IMG/VR virus record: IMGVR_UViG_3300037067_026753
Direction: 5' to 3' (one strand)
Source: a virus
DNA: 64,000 nucleotides
Shown in pieces: positions 39,367-45,396 of this stretch. The notes beneath the pieces were generated by a model, which saw nothing but the letters and a program-made list of their open reading frames with translations, was not told the DNA's origin and did not search any database. A program made the position numbers and the translations under genes. Position 1 is the stretch's first letter. Each line of letters opens with the position of its first letter.

Positions 39367-40374
39367 ATGGATCGTACACAATTCAGAGAATCAGTCTTTA
39401 AGCGAGACAATAACAAGTGTGTCATGTGTGGTGCTCCTGCTGTTGATGCTCACCATATTATTGATCGTTCTCTGTTCGAAGATGGTGGTTATCATCTTGA
39501 TAATGGAGTAAGTCTTTGTGCTGAGCATCATATTGAAGCAGAAGAGACAAAGATTTCTTGCAGCAAATTAAGAGAAAAAGCTTGCATTACAAAAGTTTAT
39601 CTCCCAGATTATTTTGATTTTGAAGAACAATATGACCATTGGGGAAATATAGTAAACACAAATGGTACACGTCTAAAAGGTGAACTTTTTGAACAACCTA
39701 ACGTGCAAAAAGCTTTAAAAGATTCTCTCCATTTATTTCTTCCTTATTTCAAATATCAGAAAACATTTCATCTTTCAAATTCTCCTGGGCTCCAGAAAAA
39801 TGACAAGAAACTCAGAGATGAATCAGCATTTCTTGGAAAAGAAATTGTTGGCACAATAAAGATGGATGGTGAAAACACCAATATGTATCCTGATTATATT
39901 CATGCTAGGTCAATTGATTCTGTCGGGCATGAGTCAAGAACATGGGTGAAAGCGTTGCATGGGAGTATTGCATATCAAATACCACAAGGATACAGGATTT
40001 GTGGAGAGAATCTTTTTGCAAAACATTCAATTCATTATATGCATCTTACAAGCTTTTTCAATGTGTTCTCTATTTGGAATGACAAAAATGAAGCATTGTG
40101 TTGGGATGAAACAGTAGAGTATTGCGAGCTGCTTGATTTAACTACCGTTCCTGTTTTTTATCGAGGGATTTATGATCCAGAAGCAATTACGAAAGCCTTC
40201 GAAAAGTATTGTAATGAGAGTAAAGATCTTGTCGAAGGTTATGTGATAAGAACTTCAGGGGTTATACATTTTTCTAAATTCAGAAAGAACGTAGCCAAAT
40301 GGGTGAGAAAAGGCCACGTTCAAACTGAACATAATTGGATGCAACAAAAAGTAATACCGAATAAAATATCTTAA
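39367..40374 (+). CDS. HNH nuclease domain fused to ATP-dependent RNA-ligase-like nucleotidyltransferase (motif I IKMDGEN, IV EGYVIR, V KFRKNVAKWVRKGH)
   Basis: HNH CxxC...HH...N...CxxHH and ligase motifs I/IV/V. Confidence 0.55.
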   Translation: MDRTQFRESVFKRDNNKCVMCGAPAVDAHHIIDRSLFEDGGYHLDNGVSLCAEHHIEAEETKISCSKLREKACITKVYLPDYFDFEEQYDHWGNIVNTNGTRLKGELFEQPNVQKALKDSLHLFLPYFKYQKTFHLSNSPGLQKNDKKLRDESAFLGKEIVGTIKMDGENTNMYPDYIHARSIDSVGHESRTWVKALHGSIAYQIPQGYRICGENLFAKHSIHYMHLTSFFNVFSIWNDKNEALCWDETVEYCELLDLTTVPVFYRGIYDPEAITKAFEKYCNESKDLVEGYVIRTSGVIHFSKFRKNVAKWVRKGHVQTEHNWMQQKVIPNKIS

Positions 40375-40757
40375 TCCTCTTGACCTTTTTGGTCCCAATC
40401 AAGAAGTTCCACAGTTTGACCACTTAGTTCATGAGTACTATCTGGTAGAAATTGAATTTTTCCATCAGTTATAAAACTGTGACAAATTATTTGCTTGCAA
40501 CCAACAGCTTTATTGTTTTCAAAAACCCAAGTACTCGGATCTCCTGGTGGGTTTTTTACATGTTTGGTTAAAATAGAAGCTCTAATTGTTGGTTTTTCTC
40601 TATCACCATTCCAAGTCCATACAGGTCCTTTAGGGACAGTGTCTGTTAAGGCTTGTGCAGGTGTAAAACCACTTGTAGAAAACCAATGAGCACAATTACA
40701 ACCTGGACAAAGAAAGAAATACACGCCTTGCTGTGCAGAATCATTTATTTTACTCAT
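40371..40757 (-). CDS. Cys-containing hypothetical protein (128 aa), last gene of TPR/response-regulator operon
   Basis: ORF with ATGA overlap to upstream gene. Confidence 0.4.
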   Translation of the reverse strand: MSKINDSAQQGVYFFLCPGCNCAHWFSTSGFTPAQALTDTVPKGPVWTWNGDREKPTIRASILTKHVKNPPGDPSTWVFENNKAVGCKQIICHSFITDGKIQFLPDSTHELSGQTVELLDWDQKGQED

Positions 40758-44700: not shown

Positions 44701-45396
44701 GTACTCAACAAAAGCTTCTTGGCATTGTCCTTTTGAGATATAAAGTCTAGCAAGTTTGAGTCTGTCCTCTATAGAAATATTGTTTACAGTTTTCAAATAC
44801 AATAATGAAGAATCAGATTGACCAAGAGCCGCATAACATAATGAAAGACGGAGTGCAATTGCATCATCTTTTTTAAGTGAATATTGTTTCAATAAATAGG
44901 GAATAGCTTGTTTATACAATTTTCTTTCATAGTAAATTGTGCCCAATGCTTCTTTAGCTTCTTTTGTTGTTCTAATTTTTTCGAACCATTTTTGGGCCTC
45001 ATCATACCTTCTAATTTTGTAACAGATACTAGCATGTTGAAGTTTGTAACTTTCAGTAATTGAGTCTTTTTGTACGCATTTAGAAGAGAATTCATAAGCT
45101 CTTTCGCAAAGACCGATTTTACAATAGACTCTAGCAAGAGAAGTTAGAACAAGACAATTAGAAGGATAAAGTCTATATAAAGACAGATAGCAAGCAATTG
45201 CTTTTTCATCAAAGCCGAGATTTTCATGTGCAAAACCATAAGCATAAGTAGTTTCTTCGTCTTGCACTTTATAGTTTGTCTCAATATATTTGATAACTTG
45301 CTTATAATCTTTTTTAAAAAGAAGACCATCAAGTTTCTTGTCGGCAAAACTTGCAATAGCGACTAAGAAAATCAAGAAAAATTTTAATGTTTTCAT
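41797..45396 (-). CDS. secreted or membrane-anchored giant TPR-repeat protein (1199 aa, signal peptide MKTLKFFLIFLVAIASFA, GGGAGGG RBS)
   Basis: repetitive Y/A/L-spaced TPR pattern through whole length; N-terminal hydrophobic leader. Confidence 0.65.
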   Translation of the reverse strand: MKTLKFFLIFLVAIASFADKKLDGLLFKKDYKQVIKYIETNYKVQDEETTYAYGFAHENLGFDEKAIACYLSLYRLYPSNCLVLTSLARVYCKIGLCERAYEFSSKCVQKDSITESYKLQHASICYKIRRYDEAQKWFEKIRTTKEAKEALGTIYYERKLYKQAIPYLLKQYSLKKDDAIALRLSLCYAALGQSDSSLLYLKTVNNISIEDRLKLARLYISKGQCQEAFVEYNKLQVQSFQYEDLTNQGKCLEEQKNISRALAFYEAATKKADAKQALQLKLKIAKIYMNLKDYVSVLKYVKEFEVLNAGLEYNRLIAQYYATTNDYAKIELYANKVLRVDSSAIPMYFLLIDAYEKQNYKTKAKKIAVRLSKQKDTPENALQLGDYYYENKNYDKAQKYYEKTYIFRENFDVLERIAICAFKQQDYDKAKDASETLLRKGAASNKCREIIYKIALDKKKYQKAIEQLEILVKFTPSLEQYKDLAVCYRETNRKEQLFVIDTKIVELDSKDIESRERLANSYYATEKNAQALKHYYELEKLRVFNVTDYFKIVTLLGKAKDNQNSIVYLKKILNLDAQNVDAHKKLADVYFKLKDYDNAYLEYNKTMTLAYSRIDYLKNFSYVVIIKKNVSEIIRICNRALVTKQADSLVIISLANTYYDMGSYTKALNVYNKLQQEKITAPIILKIAICQERTGAISNAIASYEQYVNLVQTAKNEYFNLAALYLKQGKKDLEMSTYKSYLAKYKNDKLSLKVGVYSYEKEDYKSAVKYFALANIIGNADQSFIYGRALFMTKEYDNAISILTMCTKFNSYSRIAEVYRLIAVSHENLKNIEKAIKFYKLYCQINTRDSTYFYHMGRLQEQLHVNLAKDIYVANTKRFYYDYRNYERLSGIYFKLGDYKRAQYNFEKTKALKDTISVDMLSKLAYCYKQNGNRVLEIKTYKEILGRDSKNFNANKELGIYCYEVGELHESLAYLRMAKAQNNSDPDMLYILGKIYLKDAYSSEGFEFLQTAKQQKSKDTTIRLYLIDSYKRFSKYNEAKNETEQLLAINRSFTNLDIYAKILYQLKDYAGAENIAVEMRKKEPQDINLMMFLAQIKIEQGNLDDALEYCKMVSYVDSRYAPAICKRADIYMLKKDNETAREYYNKAISIDPKYAMSYYGLGMICKFNGEIKTYTEYITKAVALDSTNTIIAEELKRTK

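What the first reader, a model, noticed from the sequence alone, without database searches (positions are those of the whole stretch)
40371..45396. Cell-like signalling operon inside the phage: giant secreted TPR protein plus response-regulator HD-GYP phosphodiesterase
A three-gene leftward operon with ATGA-overlapping junctions encodes a 1,199-aa signal-peptide-bearing TPR protein, a REC-HD-GYP c-di-GMP phosphodiesterase (HD...HHERWNGEGYP), and a 128-aa Cys-containing protein. A phage-borne c-di-GMP hydrolase controlled by a receiver domain could reprogram host motility and biofilm state. It could also be a sensor. Alternatively this segment could mark a prophage/host junction.
Basis: partly seen in the sequence, partly recalled or inferred. 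Interest (0 to 1): 0.5.

Follow-up and report, generated by a model that had tools for sequence, protein, structure and literature searches.

The report
Cyclic-di-GMP-degrading enzyme in a huge phage
A giant bacteriophage carries a strongly conserved, apparently active copy of a bacterial signalling enzyme that destroys the second messenger c-di-GMP, and in some relatives it is coupled to a huge exported repeat protein. This is a good example of something already predicted for jumbo phages, not a new kind of system.

Summary
The three leftward genes are real. They encode a 1,199-aa signal-peptide TPR protein, a 347-aa REC–HD-GYP protein and a 128-aa DUF6527/BubE-family protein. The junctions are TAATG and ATGA.

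They lie deep inside a huge phage, not at a host junction. The window has portal, terminase, protease and 13 tRNAs. The same proteins occur on a 424-kb contig, and both flanks are syntenic in a 211-kb viral contig.

Only the REC–HD-GYP gene is the stable element. It defines a metagenomic clade of 77 protein clusters (49–91% identity); every member whose context was examined lies on a huge-phage-like contig (up to 466 kb). In this clade all aligned metal and GYP residues and the c-di-GMP-type RPYR motif are invariant. The receiver's phosphorylation residues are canonical in only 31 of 77 members, though they are canonical here.

The TPR gene is translationally coupled to the enzyme gene in five related phages. 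It is missing or replaced in others, and its closest cellular relative is a secreted Fibrobacteres protein. The DUF6527 gene is a common stand-alone phage gene, and its slot is variable.

Most likely the enzyme hydrolyses c-di-GMP in the infected cell. Whether that reprograms host behaviour or removes an immune signal is unresolved.

Verdict: a new member of a known kind, of moderate interest.

The parts
41797..45396 (-). Gene for a 1,199-aa all-TPR protein with an N-terminal Sec-type signal peptide (residues 1-18, predicted cleavage ASFA|DK)
   Evidence: ORF. Pfam TPR families. N-terminus conserved in phage homologues and in the cellular 1,905-aa homologue. No further hydrophobic segment. Homologues of 54-58% identity sit next to HD-GYP in L015, L016 and L169, and a contig-truncated TPR ORF likewise in L171.
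45400..45406 (-). Shine-Dalgarno-like GGGAGGG upstream of the TPR start codon
   Evidence: Read directly from the sequence.
40754..41797 (-). Gene for the 347-aa REC-HD-GYP protein (RpfG-type architecture). Its start overlaps the TPR stop by 1 nt (TAATG).
   Evidence: AlphaFold model pLDDT 89. Best structural matches are HD-GYP phosphodiesterases 4MCW, 9RBZ and 4R8Z.
41432..41752 (-). Receiver (REC) domain, residues 16-122, with canonical D20, D21, D64 (phospho-acceptor), T93 and K115
   Evidence: Pfam Response_reg 8.5e-17. Residue analysis.
40802..41296 (-). HD-GYP domain, residues 168-332. It carries H182, H214-D215, H243, H267-H268, D296, the HHERWNGEGYP motif (267-277) and R305-P-Y-R308.
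   Evidence: Pfam HD_5 2.4e-38. Alignment to PmGH 4MCW. Invariance in 77 clade members.
40371..40757 (-). Gene for a 128-aa DUF6527/BubE-family protein. Its ATG overlaps the HD-GYP stop (ATGA), and its stop overlaps the convergent RNA-ligase stop by 4 nt.
   Evidence: Family-wide invariant residues C17, C20, H24, W47, S61, C92, H93, G99, D106, H109.
45407..45656 (-). AT-rich untranslated region upstream of the TPR gene. It presumably holds the promoter, but none was identified.
   Evidence: Sequence. The consensus promoter scan was not above chance, 29 found against 32 expected.

Best explanation
The cassette sits in a variable accessory region of a huge phage (genome at least 424 kb).

Core gene. 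The functional core is an orphan RpfG-type response-regulator phosphodiesterase, a REC domain fused to an HD-GYP domain. It is made in the infected cell's cytoplasm. Its dimetal HD-GYP site most likely hydrolyses the host's cyclic di-GMP to pGpG/GMP, which would collapse c-di-GMP-dependent outputs such as matrix or exopolysaccharide production, adhesion and motility control.

What is shown: domain integrity; strict conservation of all catalytic, metal and GYP residues and of the c-di-GMP-type RxYR motif across 77 clade members; phage location.

What is inferred: the substrate, and the benefit to the phage.

Regulation. In this phage the receiver has every residue needed for Asp phosphorylation. 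Host kinases or acetyl-phosphate could therefore tune the enzyme. Because 46 of 77 relatives have lost at least one of these residues, phosphorylation is probably not essential to the job.

TPR protein. The upstream 1,199-aa TPR protein is exported by a Sec signal peptide and probably acts as a protein-binding scaffold in the host envelope. It was acquired at the base of one sub-lineage and is translationally coupled to the enzyme there. The enzyme does not need it.

DUF6527 gene. The downstream gene is an independent, widespread phage gene of the BubE peptidase family. It is not part of the signalling function.
For: Phage context:
- Portal, large terminase and head protease, plus ribonucleotide reductase and 13 tRNAs, are in the window.
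- The same proteins occur on a 424,144-bp contig.
- The backbone PARP-AAA33-ThiF-p137-p296-p544-p83 on one side and p105 on the other flank the HD-GYP gene in the 211-kb IMG/VR contig L007.

Enzyme:
- Pfam HD_5 and Response_reg both hit.
- Sequence match to PmGH 4MCW at 1e-33 and to V-cGAP3 5Z7C at 2e-28.
- AlphaFold model at pLDDT 89 matches HD-GYP PDE structures.
- Seven of PmGH's eight metal ligands, plus catalytic D183/K225, the GYP motif and R314/K317, map onto conserved residues (numbering from PMC4159591).
- All of these are invariant in 77 of 77 clade members.
- RPYR matches the RxY[K/R] motif said to confer c-di-GMP specificity. Among the nearest cellular homologues, 26 of 42 have RxYQ, the variant linked to cGAMP (bioRxiv 10.1101/2021.11.05.467447).
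- HD-GYP is the most conserved protein of its neighbourhood in all four phage-to-phage comparisons: 74-82% against 45-81% for neighbours.

Receiver:
- The quintet is canonical here, in 31 of 77 phage-clade members, and in 42 of 42 cellular homologues.

TPR pairing:
- Seen in the window, L015, L016, L169 and L171, with 0-nt gaps or 1-nt overlaps wherever both genes are complete.
- In a neighbour-joining tree these members bracket the TPR-less L007 and L075.
Against: - No enzymatic data exist.
- V-cGAP3 also carries RPYR yet is described as cGAMP-specific (PMC4423081). The motif therefore does not exclude 3'3'-cGAMP.
- The 'KPG' loop that contacts the second base is KKD here and variable across the phage clade.
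- The tyrosine at the PmGH E185 position places the enzyme in the predicted binuclear subgroup. That subgroup includes PA4781, whose solved metal site is bimetallic, but its substrate range was not examined here.
- The host is unknown, so it is not known whether it uses c-di-GMP for behaviour.
- Neighbouring genes (PARP; NAD+ salvage genes in relatives; RNA repair) have a counter-defence flavour rather than a behaviour-control one.
- An unphosphorylated receiver might keep the enzyme off, and no kinase was found.
Confidence: 0.55

Rival explanations
1. Counter-defence enzyme. The HD-GYP domain destroys cyclic-dinucleotide immune signals made by CBASS on infection: c-di-GMP that activates TIR-STING, or 3'3'-cGAMP. 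This would prevent abortive infection and NAD+ depletion. The chemistry is the same as in the best explanation; the purpose differs.
For: - Iyer et al. predicted exactly this role for HD-GYP enzymes of jumbo phages (PMC7824862).
- c-di-GMP is the cognate CBASS signal of bacterial TIR-STING, an NADase found in Bacteroidota (PMC9402430).
- The phage clade keeps a c-di-GMP-type RPYR motif.
- The HD-GYP gene lies within a few kb of PARP in the window and in relatives.
- It lies 3-5 kb from NadE and NAPRTase genes (with an NMNAT-type gene between them in L015 and L016) in L015, L016, L169 and L171.
- The window itself has a MazG-NMNAT gene, RNA ligases, RtcB and a tRNA array.
- Erosion of the receiver's phospho-site fits an enzyme that must act without host input.
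- The TPR protein's nearest cellular relatives are from Fibrobacteres and Bacteroidota, the FCB group where STING-CBASS occurs.
Against: - A receiver domain is not expected on a simple signal-destroying enzyme.
- No known anti-CBASS protein has this fold.
- The gene-neighbourhood argument is guilt by association in a region that is largely accessory.
- The host, and whether it carries CBASS, are unknown.
- PADLOC gives only generic HD hits.
Confidence: 0.3
2. Phage-encoded sensory pathway. The exported TPR protein senses something in the envelope or environment, and the signal reaches the REC-HD-GYP protein by phosphotransfer. The phage would thereby tune c-di-GMP to conditions.
For: - The TPR and REC-HD-GYP genes are translationally coupled in five diverged phages.
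- The receiver is canonical in this phage and in most of its TPR-bearing sub-lineage.
Against: - The TPR protein has a cleavable-type signal peptide and no membrane anchor or kinase domain, so no route for phosphotransfer is visible.
- No histidine kinase was found among the annotated/scanned ORFs of the window (mostly the larger ones) or in the precomputed annotations of the 7-21 kb stretches fetched around eight relatives.
- Close relatives keep the enzyme without the TPR gene.
- None of about 140 other HD-GYP loci has a homologue of this TPR protein nearby.
Confidence: 0.08
3. The segment is flanking host chromosome or a recent host-derived insertion. In that case the genes would reflect bacterial rather than phage biology.
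For: - The domain architectures are typically cellular.
- The record is labelled as a 'Candidatus Nanoarchaeia archaeon' MAG.
- The tetranucleotide distance of the 5-kb stretch from 41001 is about 2.6 sd above the window mean.
Against: - Phage genes lie on both sides for tens of kb.
- Both flanks are syntenic in viral contigs of 119-211 kb.
- The HD-GYP clade members whose context was examined lie on huge-phage-like contigs, and they are separated by a gap (49% down to 36% identity) from cellular homologues.
- The TPR protein has no cellular relative above 27-28% identity.
- GC, GC3 and codon usage are typical of the window, and the largest tetranucleotide deviation lies elsewhere.
- The MAG label is a binning error: the same MAG label is on the portal protein and ribonucleotide reductase of this window.
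Confidence: 0.02
4. The HD-GYP domain acts mainly as a c-di-GMP receptor or a protein-interaction module rather than as a hydrolase.
For: - Some HD-GYP proteins act through protein contacts or as receptors (bioRxiv 10.1101/2021.11.05.467447).
- One of the structural matches, DvhD 9RBZ, was solved c-di-GMP-bound.
- The enzyme belongs to the binuclear Y/F subgroup (PMC4159591).
Against: Every aligned metal ligand and both proposed catalytic residues are invariant over 77 sequences diverged to 49% identity. That is the pattern of a working enzyme, not a degenerate receptor.
Confidence: 0.05

Closest known systems
RpfG family (REC-HD-GYP response regulators; COG3437), e.g. Xanthomonas RpfG, Thermotoga TM0186, Pseudomonas PA4781
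   Same: Same two-domain architecture with a long connecting helix. Canonical receiver quintet. Complete HD and HHExx(D/N)GxGYP motifs. RxY[K/R] substrate motif.
   Different: Encoded by a huge phage. No partner histidine kinase was found among the annotated/scanned ORFs. The phospho-site is decaying in most of its phage relatives. Only about 36% identical to the nearest cellular proteins. Scores 192 bits against NCBIfam's NosR-family RR-PDE model, whose cut-off is 400.
PmGH of Persephonella marina (PDB 4MCW), the structural paradigm of active HD-GYP c-di-GMP phosphodiesterases
   Same: Best sequence match (1e-33) and best structural match. Seven of eight metal ligands, D183/K225, GYP and R314 are all conserved.
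   Different: GAF is replaced by REC. Tyr stands in place of the third-metal ligand E185, so the enzyme falls in the predicted binuclear Y/F subgroup. K317 is Arg. The KPG loop is KKD.
V-cGAP3 of Vibrio cholerae (PDB 5Z7C), a 3'3'-cGAMP phosphodiesterase; also the HD-GYP gene of Microcystis phage MaAM05, which is annotated after it
   Same: HD-GYP fold, Tyr at the E185 position, RPYR motif. MaAM05 shows that an isolated jumbo phage also carries an HD-GYP gene.
   Different: V-cGAP3 has tandem HD-GYP modules and no REC. The MaAM05 match covers only the HD-GYP half at 32% identity.
HD-GYP 'counter-nucleotide' enzymes predicted in jumbo phages (Iyer, Anantharaman, Krishnan, Burroughs and Aravind 2021, PMC7824862)
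   Same: Phage-borne HD-GYP in a genome rich in NAD+/ADP-ribose, RNA-repair and nucleotide-centred genes.
   Different: That work did not describe this REC-fused clade, its pairing with an exported TPR protein, or the erosion of the receiver. No member has been tested.
BubE (DUF6527/PF20137), the Ser-His peptidase of bacterial ubiquitination-like Bub operons (bioRxiv 10.1101/2024.11.21.623953)
   Same: The 128-aa protein passes the Pfam threshold. It keeps a Cys/His cluster and an invariant Ser, Asp and His.
   Different: It stands alone, with no adjacent Ubl/E2/E1 genes. It belongs to a phage subfamily (phrog_3362) found in 286 isolated phage genomes. The mapping onto BubE's S92/H102 dyad could not be made.
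Secreted giant TPR proteins of Fibrobacteres/Bacteroidota, and PrsT of PEP-CTERM exopolysaccharide loci
   Same: Signal peptide followed by an uninterrupted TPR solenoid. About 27% identity along most of its length to a 1,905-aa Fibrobacteres protein, starting right at the mature N-terminus.
   Different: Shorter. PrsT model score is 198 against a cut-off of 312. The cellular homologue is not next to an HD-GYP gene.

Membership tests
HD-GYP domain (Pfam HD_5 PF13487 / ProSite PS51832) | Profile match above the curated threshold | tested here: met
   HD_5 at 132 bits against a cut-off of 27.2, covering profile positions 3-170 of 170.
HD-GYP domain | HD dyad and the other His/Asp metal ligands (PmGH H189, H221, D222, H250, H276, H277, D305) plus catalytic D183/K225 | tested here: met
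   These map to H182, H214, D215, H243, H267, H268, D296, D176 and K218 by alignment to 4MCW (numbering from PMC4159591). All are invariant in 77 of 77 clade members.
HD-GYP domain | HHExh(D/N)GxGYP motif | tested here: met
   HHERWNGEGYP at residues 267-277. Invariant H, H, E, G, G, Y, P.
HD-GYP domain, c-di-GMP-specific type | RxY[K/R] motif (PmGH R314/K317); RxxQ/N shifts specificity to cGAMP | tested here: met
   R305-P-Y-R308, invariant in the phage clade. 26 of 42 nearest cellular homologues have RxYQ. The motif is not fully diagnostic, because V-cGAP3 also has RPYR.
HD-GYP domain | Conserved KPG loop contacting the second guanine | tested here: not met
   K228-K-D230 here. The phage clade has K[KR]x, while cellular homologues have K[QP]G. 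The contacts are by main chain, so the consequence is unclear.
HD-GYP trinuclear (E/D-T-G) subgroup | Carboxylate at the PmGH E185 position | tested here: not met
   Y178, present in 76 of 77 clade members. This places the enzyme in the Y/F subgroup, predicted to be binuclear (PMC4159591).
HD-GYP phosphodiesterase | Measured hydrolysis of c-di-GMP (or cGAMP) | not testable with these tools
   Needs an enzyme assay.
Response-regulator receiver (REC, PF00072) | Acidic pair, phospho-acceptor Asp, Thr/Ser and Lys quintet | tested here: met
   D20, D21, D64, T93 and K115 are present. Across the phage clade only 31 of 77 keep all five.
Two-component system (RpfC/RpfG-like pair) | A cognate histidine kinase encoded with the regulator | tested here: not met
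   No HisKA/HATPase hit among the annotated/scanned ORFs of the window (mostly the larger ones) or in precomputed Pfam lists around eight relatives. The other roughly 360 kb of the genome was not available.
NosR-family RR c-di-GMP phosphodiesterase (NCBIfam NF053512) | Score above the curated cut-off | tested here: not met
   191.9 bits against a cut-off of 400.
TPR repeat proteins | Multiple TPR profile matches above threshold | tested here: met
   TPR_19, TPR_2, TPR_14, TPR_16, ANAPC3 and others, spread over residues ~130-1170.
PrsT (XrtA/PEP-CTERM TPR lipoprotein, TIGR02917) | Score above the curated cut-off | tested here: not met
   198.4 bits against a cut-off of 312.2. No lipobox cysteine.
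BubE / DUF6527 (PF20137) | Profile match above the gathering score | tested here: met
   29.5 bits against 23.6. The precomputed annotation also gives PF20137:BubE.
Bub (bacterial ubiquitination-like) operon | Adjacent Ubl, E2 and E1 genes | tested here: not met
   The neighbours are REC-HD-GYP and an HNH-RNA ligase. A ThiF-like gene lies 9 kb away in a different conserved block. Phage and prophage homologues also stand alone.
BubE peptidase | C4 zinc site and Ser-His catalytic dyad (Citrobacter C57/C59/C61/C99, S92, H102) | tested here: inconclusive
   Invariant C17, C20, H24, S61, C92, H93, D106 and H109 in 61 homologues. No reference BubE sequence was available to fix the correspondence.
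Known anti-phage defence systems (PADLOC) | Match to a defence-system protein model | tested here: not met
   Only weak generic HD-domain hits to Cas3/Cas10 for the enzyme. Nothing for the TPR or DUF6527 proteins.

The most novel reading that the evidence does not exclude
The conserved huge-phage REC-HD-GYP enzyme is an anti-CBASS factor. It erases c-di-GMP (or cGAMP) made as an immune alarm, for example by CdnE for TIR-STING in FCB-group hosts. It would work alongside the neighbouring PARP and NAD+ salvage genes to defeat NAD+-depleting immunity. In one sub-lineage an exported TPR protein was recruited as a second, envelope-directed arm. If true, this would be the first HD-GYP-fold anti-defence enzyme and the first phage counter to c-di-GMP-based immunity.
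Probability: 0.25. Interest if true: 0.7.

Novelty: new member of a known kind. Interest (0 to 1): 0.4.

Why it matters
Cyclic di-GMP governs biofilm, adhesion and motility in most bacteria, and it is also the alarm molecule of STING-type CBASS immunity. A phage enzyme that removes it would be a direct handle on either process.

This locus offers a well-defined, strongly conserved family to test: 77 protein clusters, every member whose context was examined lying on a huge-phage-like contig. It also contains natural variants with intact and with decayed receiver phospho-sites. These variants would show whether phages have freed a two-component enzyme from its kinase.

Such a test would turn an existing bioinformatic prediction for jumbo phages into an experiment. 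It does not reveal a new type of system.

Tried and rejected
- Prophage/host junction: rejected on synteny, context and composition.
- Near-identical DNA in 50,697 phage records: none found. By protein, only one isolated phage (Microcystis MaAM05) and 27 unannotated faecal 'Bacteriophage sp.' contigs carry an HD-GYP relative.
- Histidine kinase, GGDEF or PilZ partner: none among the annotated/scanned ORFs (mostly the larger ones).
- c-di-GMP riboswitch: none. Rfam at gathering threshold finds only 13 tRNAs.
- Bub ubiquitin-like operon reading for the 128-aa gene: rejected, because there is no E1/E2/Ubl next to it and the family is a common stand-alone phage gene.
- Known defence system: rejected.
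- Promoter and terminator scan of the cassette: not above chance.
- Mapping the DUF6527 protein onto BubE's catalytic dyad: failed for lack of a reference sequence. The paper's supplements are not held.
- The paper on cGAMP-specific HD-GYPs (PMC7209772) is not held.
- Side question on p544 (46592-48226) as a Ro60-like protein: no PDB sequence hit.
- Host assignment: only weak hints were obtained, namely the TPR protein's closest cellular relative in a Fibrobacteres MAG at about 27% identity.

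
Full report
**Observation**

The minus strand of 40371-45396 carries three tightly packed ORFs, as described.

- The 1,199-aa product starts at the ATG at 45396. A GGGAGGG sits 3-4 nt upstream.
- It is TPR repeats from end to end: 18 Pfam TPR-type families hit; 12 exceed their cut-offs.
- Its N-terminus, MKTLKFFLIFLVAIASFA|DKK, has the charge/hydrophobic/small-residue layout of a cleavable Sec signal peptide. No other hydrophobic segment is present.
- The 347-aa product has a receiver domain (residues 16-122, 8.5e-17) and an HD_5/HD-GYP domain (168-332, 2.4e-38). 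It contains HD at 214-215 and HHERWNGEGYP at 267-277 (H266 precedes it).
- The 128-aa product is a DUF6527 protein. Pfam now names this family BubE. It also matches phrog_3362 at 5.7e-29.
- The TPR/HD-GYP junction is TAATG, a 1-nt overlap. The HD-GYP/DUF6527 junction is ATGA. So only one of the two junctions is of the ATGA type.

**Where it sits**

The window is part of a very large phage.

- It encodes a portal, a large terminase, a head protease, ribonucleotide reductase, helicases, RtcB, two RNA/DNA-ligase-like proteins, a PARP and 13 tRNAs.
- The exact proteins are deposited under a MAG labelled 'Candidatus Nanoarchaeia archaeon'. That MAG label also carries the portal protein and ribonucleotide reductase of this window, so the label is a binning error. 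The same proteins also occur on a contig of 424,144 bp.
- GC, GC3 and synonymous codon usage of the three genes lie within the spread of the other 55 ORFs.
- In a 211-kb IMG/VR contig (L007), the HD-GYP gene is 82% identical at the protein level. There the same backbone (PARP, AAA_33, ThiF, p137, p296, p544, p83, two tRNAs) lies on one side of the enzyme gene, and p105 and a tRNA array lie on the other.
- The prophage/host-junction alternative is therefore refuted.

**What is conserved and what is not**

A search of 5.8 billion proteins found a compact clade of REC-HD-GYP proteins at 49-91% identity. All are metagenomic, with contigs up to 466 kb. A gap then separates them from ordinary cellular homologues at 36% or less. 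Two members at 59% identity sit alone among small unannotated phage-type genes on contigs of 466 kb and 282 kb.

Comparison of the loci gives this picture:

- The enzyme gene is always present. In each of the four phage-to-phage comparisons it is the most conserved protein of its neighbourhood: 74-82% against 45-81% for its neighbours.
- The TPR gene lies immediately upstream, with a 0-nt gap or 1-nt overlap wherever both genes are complete (the L171 TPR ORF is truncated by the contig start), in five phages: the window, L015, L016, L169 and L171. The complete TPR copies (L015, L016, L169) are 54-58% identical to the window's.
- The TPR gene is absent from L007. In L075 it is replaced by 6.4 kb of unrelated cargo, including a putative (unscanned) glycosyltransferase-like ORF.
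- In a neighbour-joining tree the TPR-bearing members bracket the TPR-less ones. The simplest history is one gain at the base of a sub-lineage followed by losses.
- The third slot is variable. It holds DUF6527 in the window, a 62-aa ORF in L015 and a 134-135-aa ORF in L016, L169 and L171. In L016 a DUF6527 gene sits 1.7 kb further on.
- The HNH-RNA-ligase gene next to the cassette is confined to the window's own strain.

The 'operon' is thus a stable enzyme gene sitting in an insertion hotspot between tRNA clusters and homing-endonuclease genes. It has one semi-stable partner (the TPR gene) and one incidental neighbour (the DUF6527 gene).

**The enzyme**

- Sequence comparison with solved structures puts it closest to PmGH (4MCW, 1e-33) and V-cGAP3 (5Z7C).
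- An AlphaFold model (pLDDT 89) shows a receiver, a 57-residue connecting helix and an all-helical HD-GYP domain. Its best matches are 4MCW, DvhD 9RBZ and PA4781 4R8Z.
- Using the PmGH numbering of PMC4159591, seven of the eight metal ligands map to H182, H214, D215, H243, H267, H268 and D296. The proposed catalytic D183/K225 map to D176/K218, and the GYP motif to G275-Y-P277.
- The eighth ligand, E185, is Y178. This places the protein in the Y/F subgroup that the PmGH authors predict to be binuclear.
- Across 77 clade members every one of these positions is invariant. That is the signature of a working hydrolase.
- Galperin and Chou (bioRxiv 10.1101/2021.11.05.467447) attribute c-di-GMP specificity largely to an RxY[K/R] motif. 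They report that RxxQ/N variants shift specificity to cGAMP.
- The phage clade has an invariant RPYR, whereas 26 of the 42 nearest cellular homologues have RxYQ.
- This favours c-di-GMP as substrate but does not prove it, because V-cGAP3 also has RPYR.
- The KPG loop is not conserved in the phage clade (KKD here). Its contacts are by main chain.

**The receiver**

The window's protein has the full phosphorylation quintet: D20, D21, D64, T93, K115. In the phage clade only 31 of 77 sequences keep all five, against 42 of 42 of the nearest cellular homologues.

- The Mg2+-binding Asp is Asn in 32 members.
- The phospho-acceptor is replaced in 10 members (E, A, T, N, S or I).

I found no histidine kinase among the annotated/scanned ORFs of the window (mostly the larger ones) or in the annotated flanks of eight relatives. 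About 360 kb of the genome was out of reach.

My inference is that the protein is an orphan regulator. Host kinases or acetyl-phosphate could still modulate it in this phage, but the lineage as a whole is drifting towards kinase independence.

**The TPR protein**

- It has no close cellular relative. After the phage copies, the next hits are 1,904-1,905-aa proteins at 26-28% identity over 80-96% of the query.
- One of these is 97% identical to a gene of a Fibrobacteres MAG. It sits in an ordinary chromosomal context (MltG, thioredoxin, Rnf) without an HD-GYP gene.
- Signal peptides are present in all copies, and the similarity begins right at the predicted mature N-terminus. The phage therefore kept an exported protein.
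- None of about 140 other HD-GYP loci fetched (1.9 Mb) has a homologue of this TPR protein nearby.
- Its function is unknown. The best guess is a periplasmic or extracellular protein-binding scaffold. A direct complex with the cytoplasmic enzyme is topologically unlikely.

**The DUF6527 protein**

- The family is large: 3,089 clusters at 50% identity reach E<=1e-3.
- Homologues occur in 286 isolated phage genomes, including Salmonella, Klebsiella, Escherichia and Erwinia phages and RcapMu. All listed copies carry no informative functional annotation.
- Copies in Mu-like prophages lie between lysis and terminase genes.
- Sixty-one homologues share invariant C17, C20, H24, W47, S61, C92, H93, G99, D106 and H109.
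- BubE of bacterial Bub operons is a zinc-binding Ser-His peptidase that cleaves ubiquitin-like conjugates (bioRxiv 10.1101/2024.11.21.623953).
- The phage protein could therefore be a related peptidase. However, there is no E1/E2/Ubl beside it, and I could not align it to the reference dyad. It has no evident tie to nucleotide signalling.

**Mechanism and rivals**

The best-supported statement is chemical: a phage-made, active HD-GYP phosphodiesterase lowers c-di-GMP in the infected cell. Two purposes compete.

It fits the RpfG-type architecture and the envelope-directed partner.
- Counter-defence, proposed for jumbo-phage HD-GYPs by Iyer et al. (PMC7824862).
  - c-di-GMP is the cognate alarm of TIR-STING CBASS, whose effector burns NAD+ (PMC9402430).
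  - PARP lies next to the enzyme, and NadE and NAPRTase genes (with an NMNAT-type gene in L015 and L016) lie 3-5 kb from it in four relatives.
  - The receiver is decaying.
  - The only host hints point to the FCB group.

I put these at about 0.55 and 0.30. A phage-encoded sensory pathway (0.08), a non-catalytic role (0.05) and host DNA (0.02) are less likely.

**Novelty**

REC-HD-GYP is a textbook architecture, and HD-GYP genes have already been noted in jumbo phages. This is therefore a new member of a known kind.

What is new here is descriptive:

- a defined, strongly conserved huge-phage clade;
- its invariant c-di-GMP-type motif;
- the erosion of its receiver;
- a recurrent, translationally coupled exported TPR partner.

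None of it has been tested experimentally. Interest is moderate (0.4).

Noticed in passing
window 45657-46346 (+): Four tandem units of about 150-180 nt lie between the TPR gene and p83/p544. Each is a tRNA or tRNA-like core flanked by conserved, mutually complementary arms that form a long terminal stem. Units 1 and 3 are called tRNAs. Units 2 (45815-45990, fold z = -6.6) and 4 (46143-46300, z = -4.1) have a T-arm, then a closed acceptor-like hairpin (CTCCACC-GGC-GGTGGAG), then a D-arm-like element. That permuted order recalls the tRNA-like module of bacterial Y RNAs (YrlA). Rfam gives no Y-RNA hit. A strong terminator lies at 46315-46346.
   Followed up: partly
window 46592-48226 (+), with 46423-46674: A conserved 544-aa protein sits directly downstream of the tRNA-like array. 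It is predicted helical over its first ~340 residues (by eye and a very low-confidence model) and has a vWA-like C-terminus with a DxSGS MIDAS-like motif (D365-S369). It has only a weak phrog_850 'RNA-binding protein' hit (5.6e-4). This could be a Ro60/Rsr-like partner of Y-like RNAs, with RtcB 12 kb away. There was no PDB sequence hit, and the single-sequence structure model failed at pLDDT 38.
   Followed up: partly
window 45689-45764 (+): ARAGORN calls a tRNA-Asn with anticodon ATT. An unmodified A34 is unusual outside tRNA-Arg(ACG). The related contig L007 has an uncallable 'tRNA-???' at the equivalent place.
   Followed up: no
window 49805-52318 (+): A conserved block ThiF-like E1 adenylation domain (210 aa) / AAA_33 kinase (170 aa) / WGR-PARP (470 aa) is kept, wholly or in part, next to the HD-GYP region in several relatives. 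The ThiF protein gives generic hits to CBASS Cap2-type E1-E2 models.
   Followed up: partly
window 39367-40374 (+): An HNH endonuclease domain is fused to an RNA ligase (phrog_24030, 1.5e-110). The gene is convergent with the DUF6527 gene and overlaps it by 4 nt. It is present only in the window's own strain and absent from all diverged relatives.
   Followed up: partly
window 35364-37781 (-): An array of 11 tRNAs is interrupted by a 330-aa homing-endonuclease-like ORF (MTES_1575/DUF559, 35621-36613). The ends of that ORF overlap two tRNA genes. A further 268-aa HNH gene lies at 37767-38573. The NCBI contig of the same phage ends just here, near window position 38.7 kb, which suggests assembly trouble or strain variation.
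   Followed up: no
window 59786-62179 (+): The RtcB tRNA-splicing ligase is 797 aa long. The profile matches only residues 432-792, in two stretches, so there is a long N-terminal extension or an insert such as an intein.
   Followed up: no
window 13102-20079 (-): LigD-like parts are spread over separate genes: a 3'-phosphoesterase domain (13102-14814), a primase-polymerase domain (15318-16175) and an ATP-dependent ligase (18889-20079), with an AAA ATPase between them. This looks like a phage-encoded end-repair set.
   Followed up: no
window 12101-13033 (-) and 34056-35000 (-): A circularly permuted YpsA SLOG-family protein (2.2e-32) and a MazG-NMNAT fusion are present. Relatives carry NadE and NAPRTase next to the NMNAT gene, but the window lacks both.
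   Followed up: partly
whole window / record: The source record is deposited as a 'Candidatus Nanoarchaeia archaeon' MAG (GCA_028717785.1). The portal protein and ribonucleotide reductase of this window are deposited under the same MAG label, and the same proteins lie on a 424-kb contig. This is a huge phage mis-binned as a DPANN archaeon.
   Followed up: yes
L167 4995-5324 and L168 4968-5363 (plasmid-borne prophages): Stand-alone DUF6527 genes sit near endolysin/holin genes in Mu-like or phage-plasmid elements of Klebsiella and Rhodovastum, and in the Klebsiella element just upstream of the large terminase. This hints at a conserved late-gene role for the phage subfamily.
   Followed up: partly
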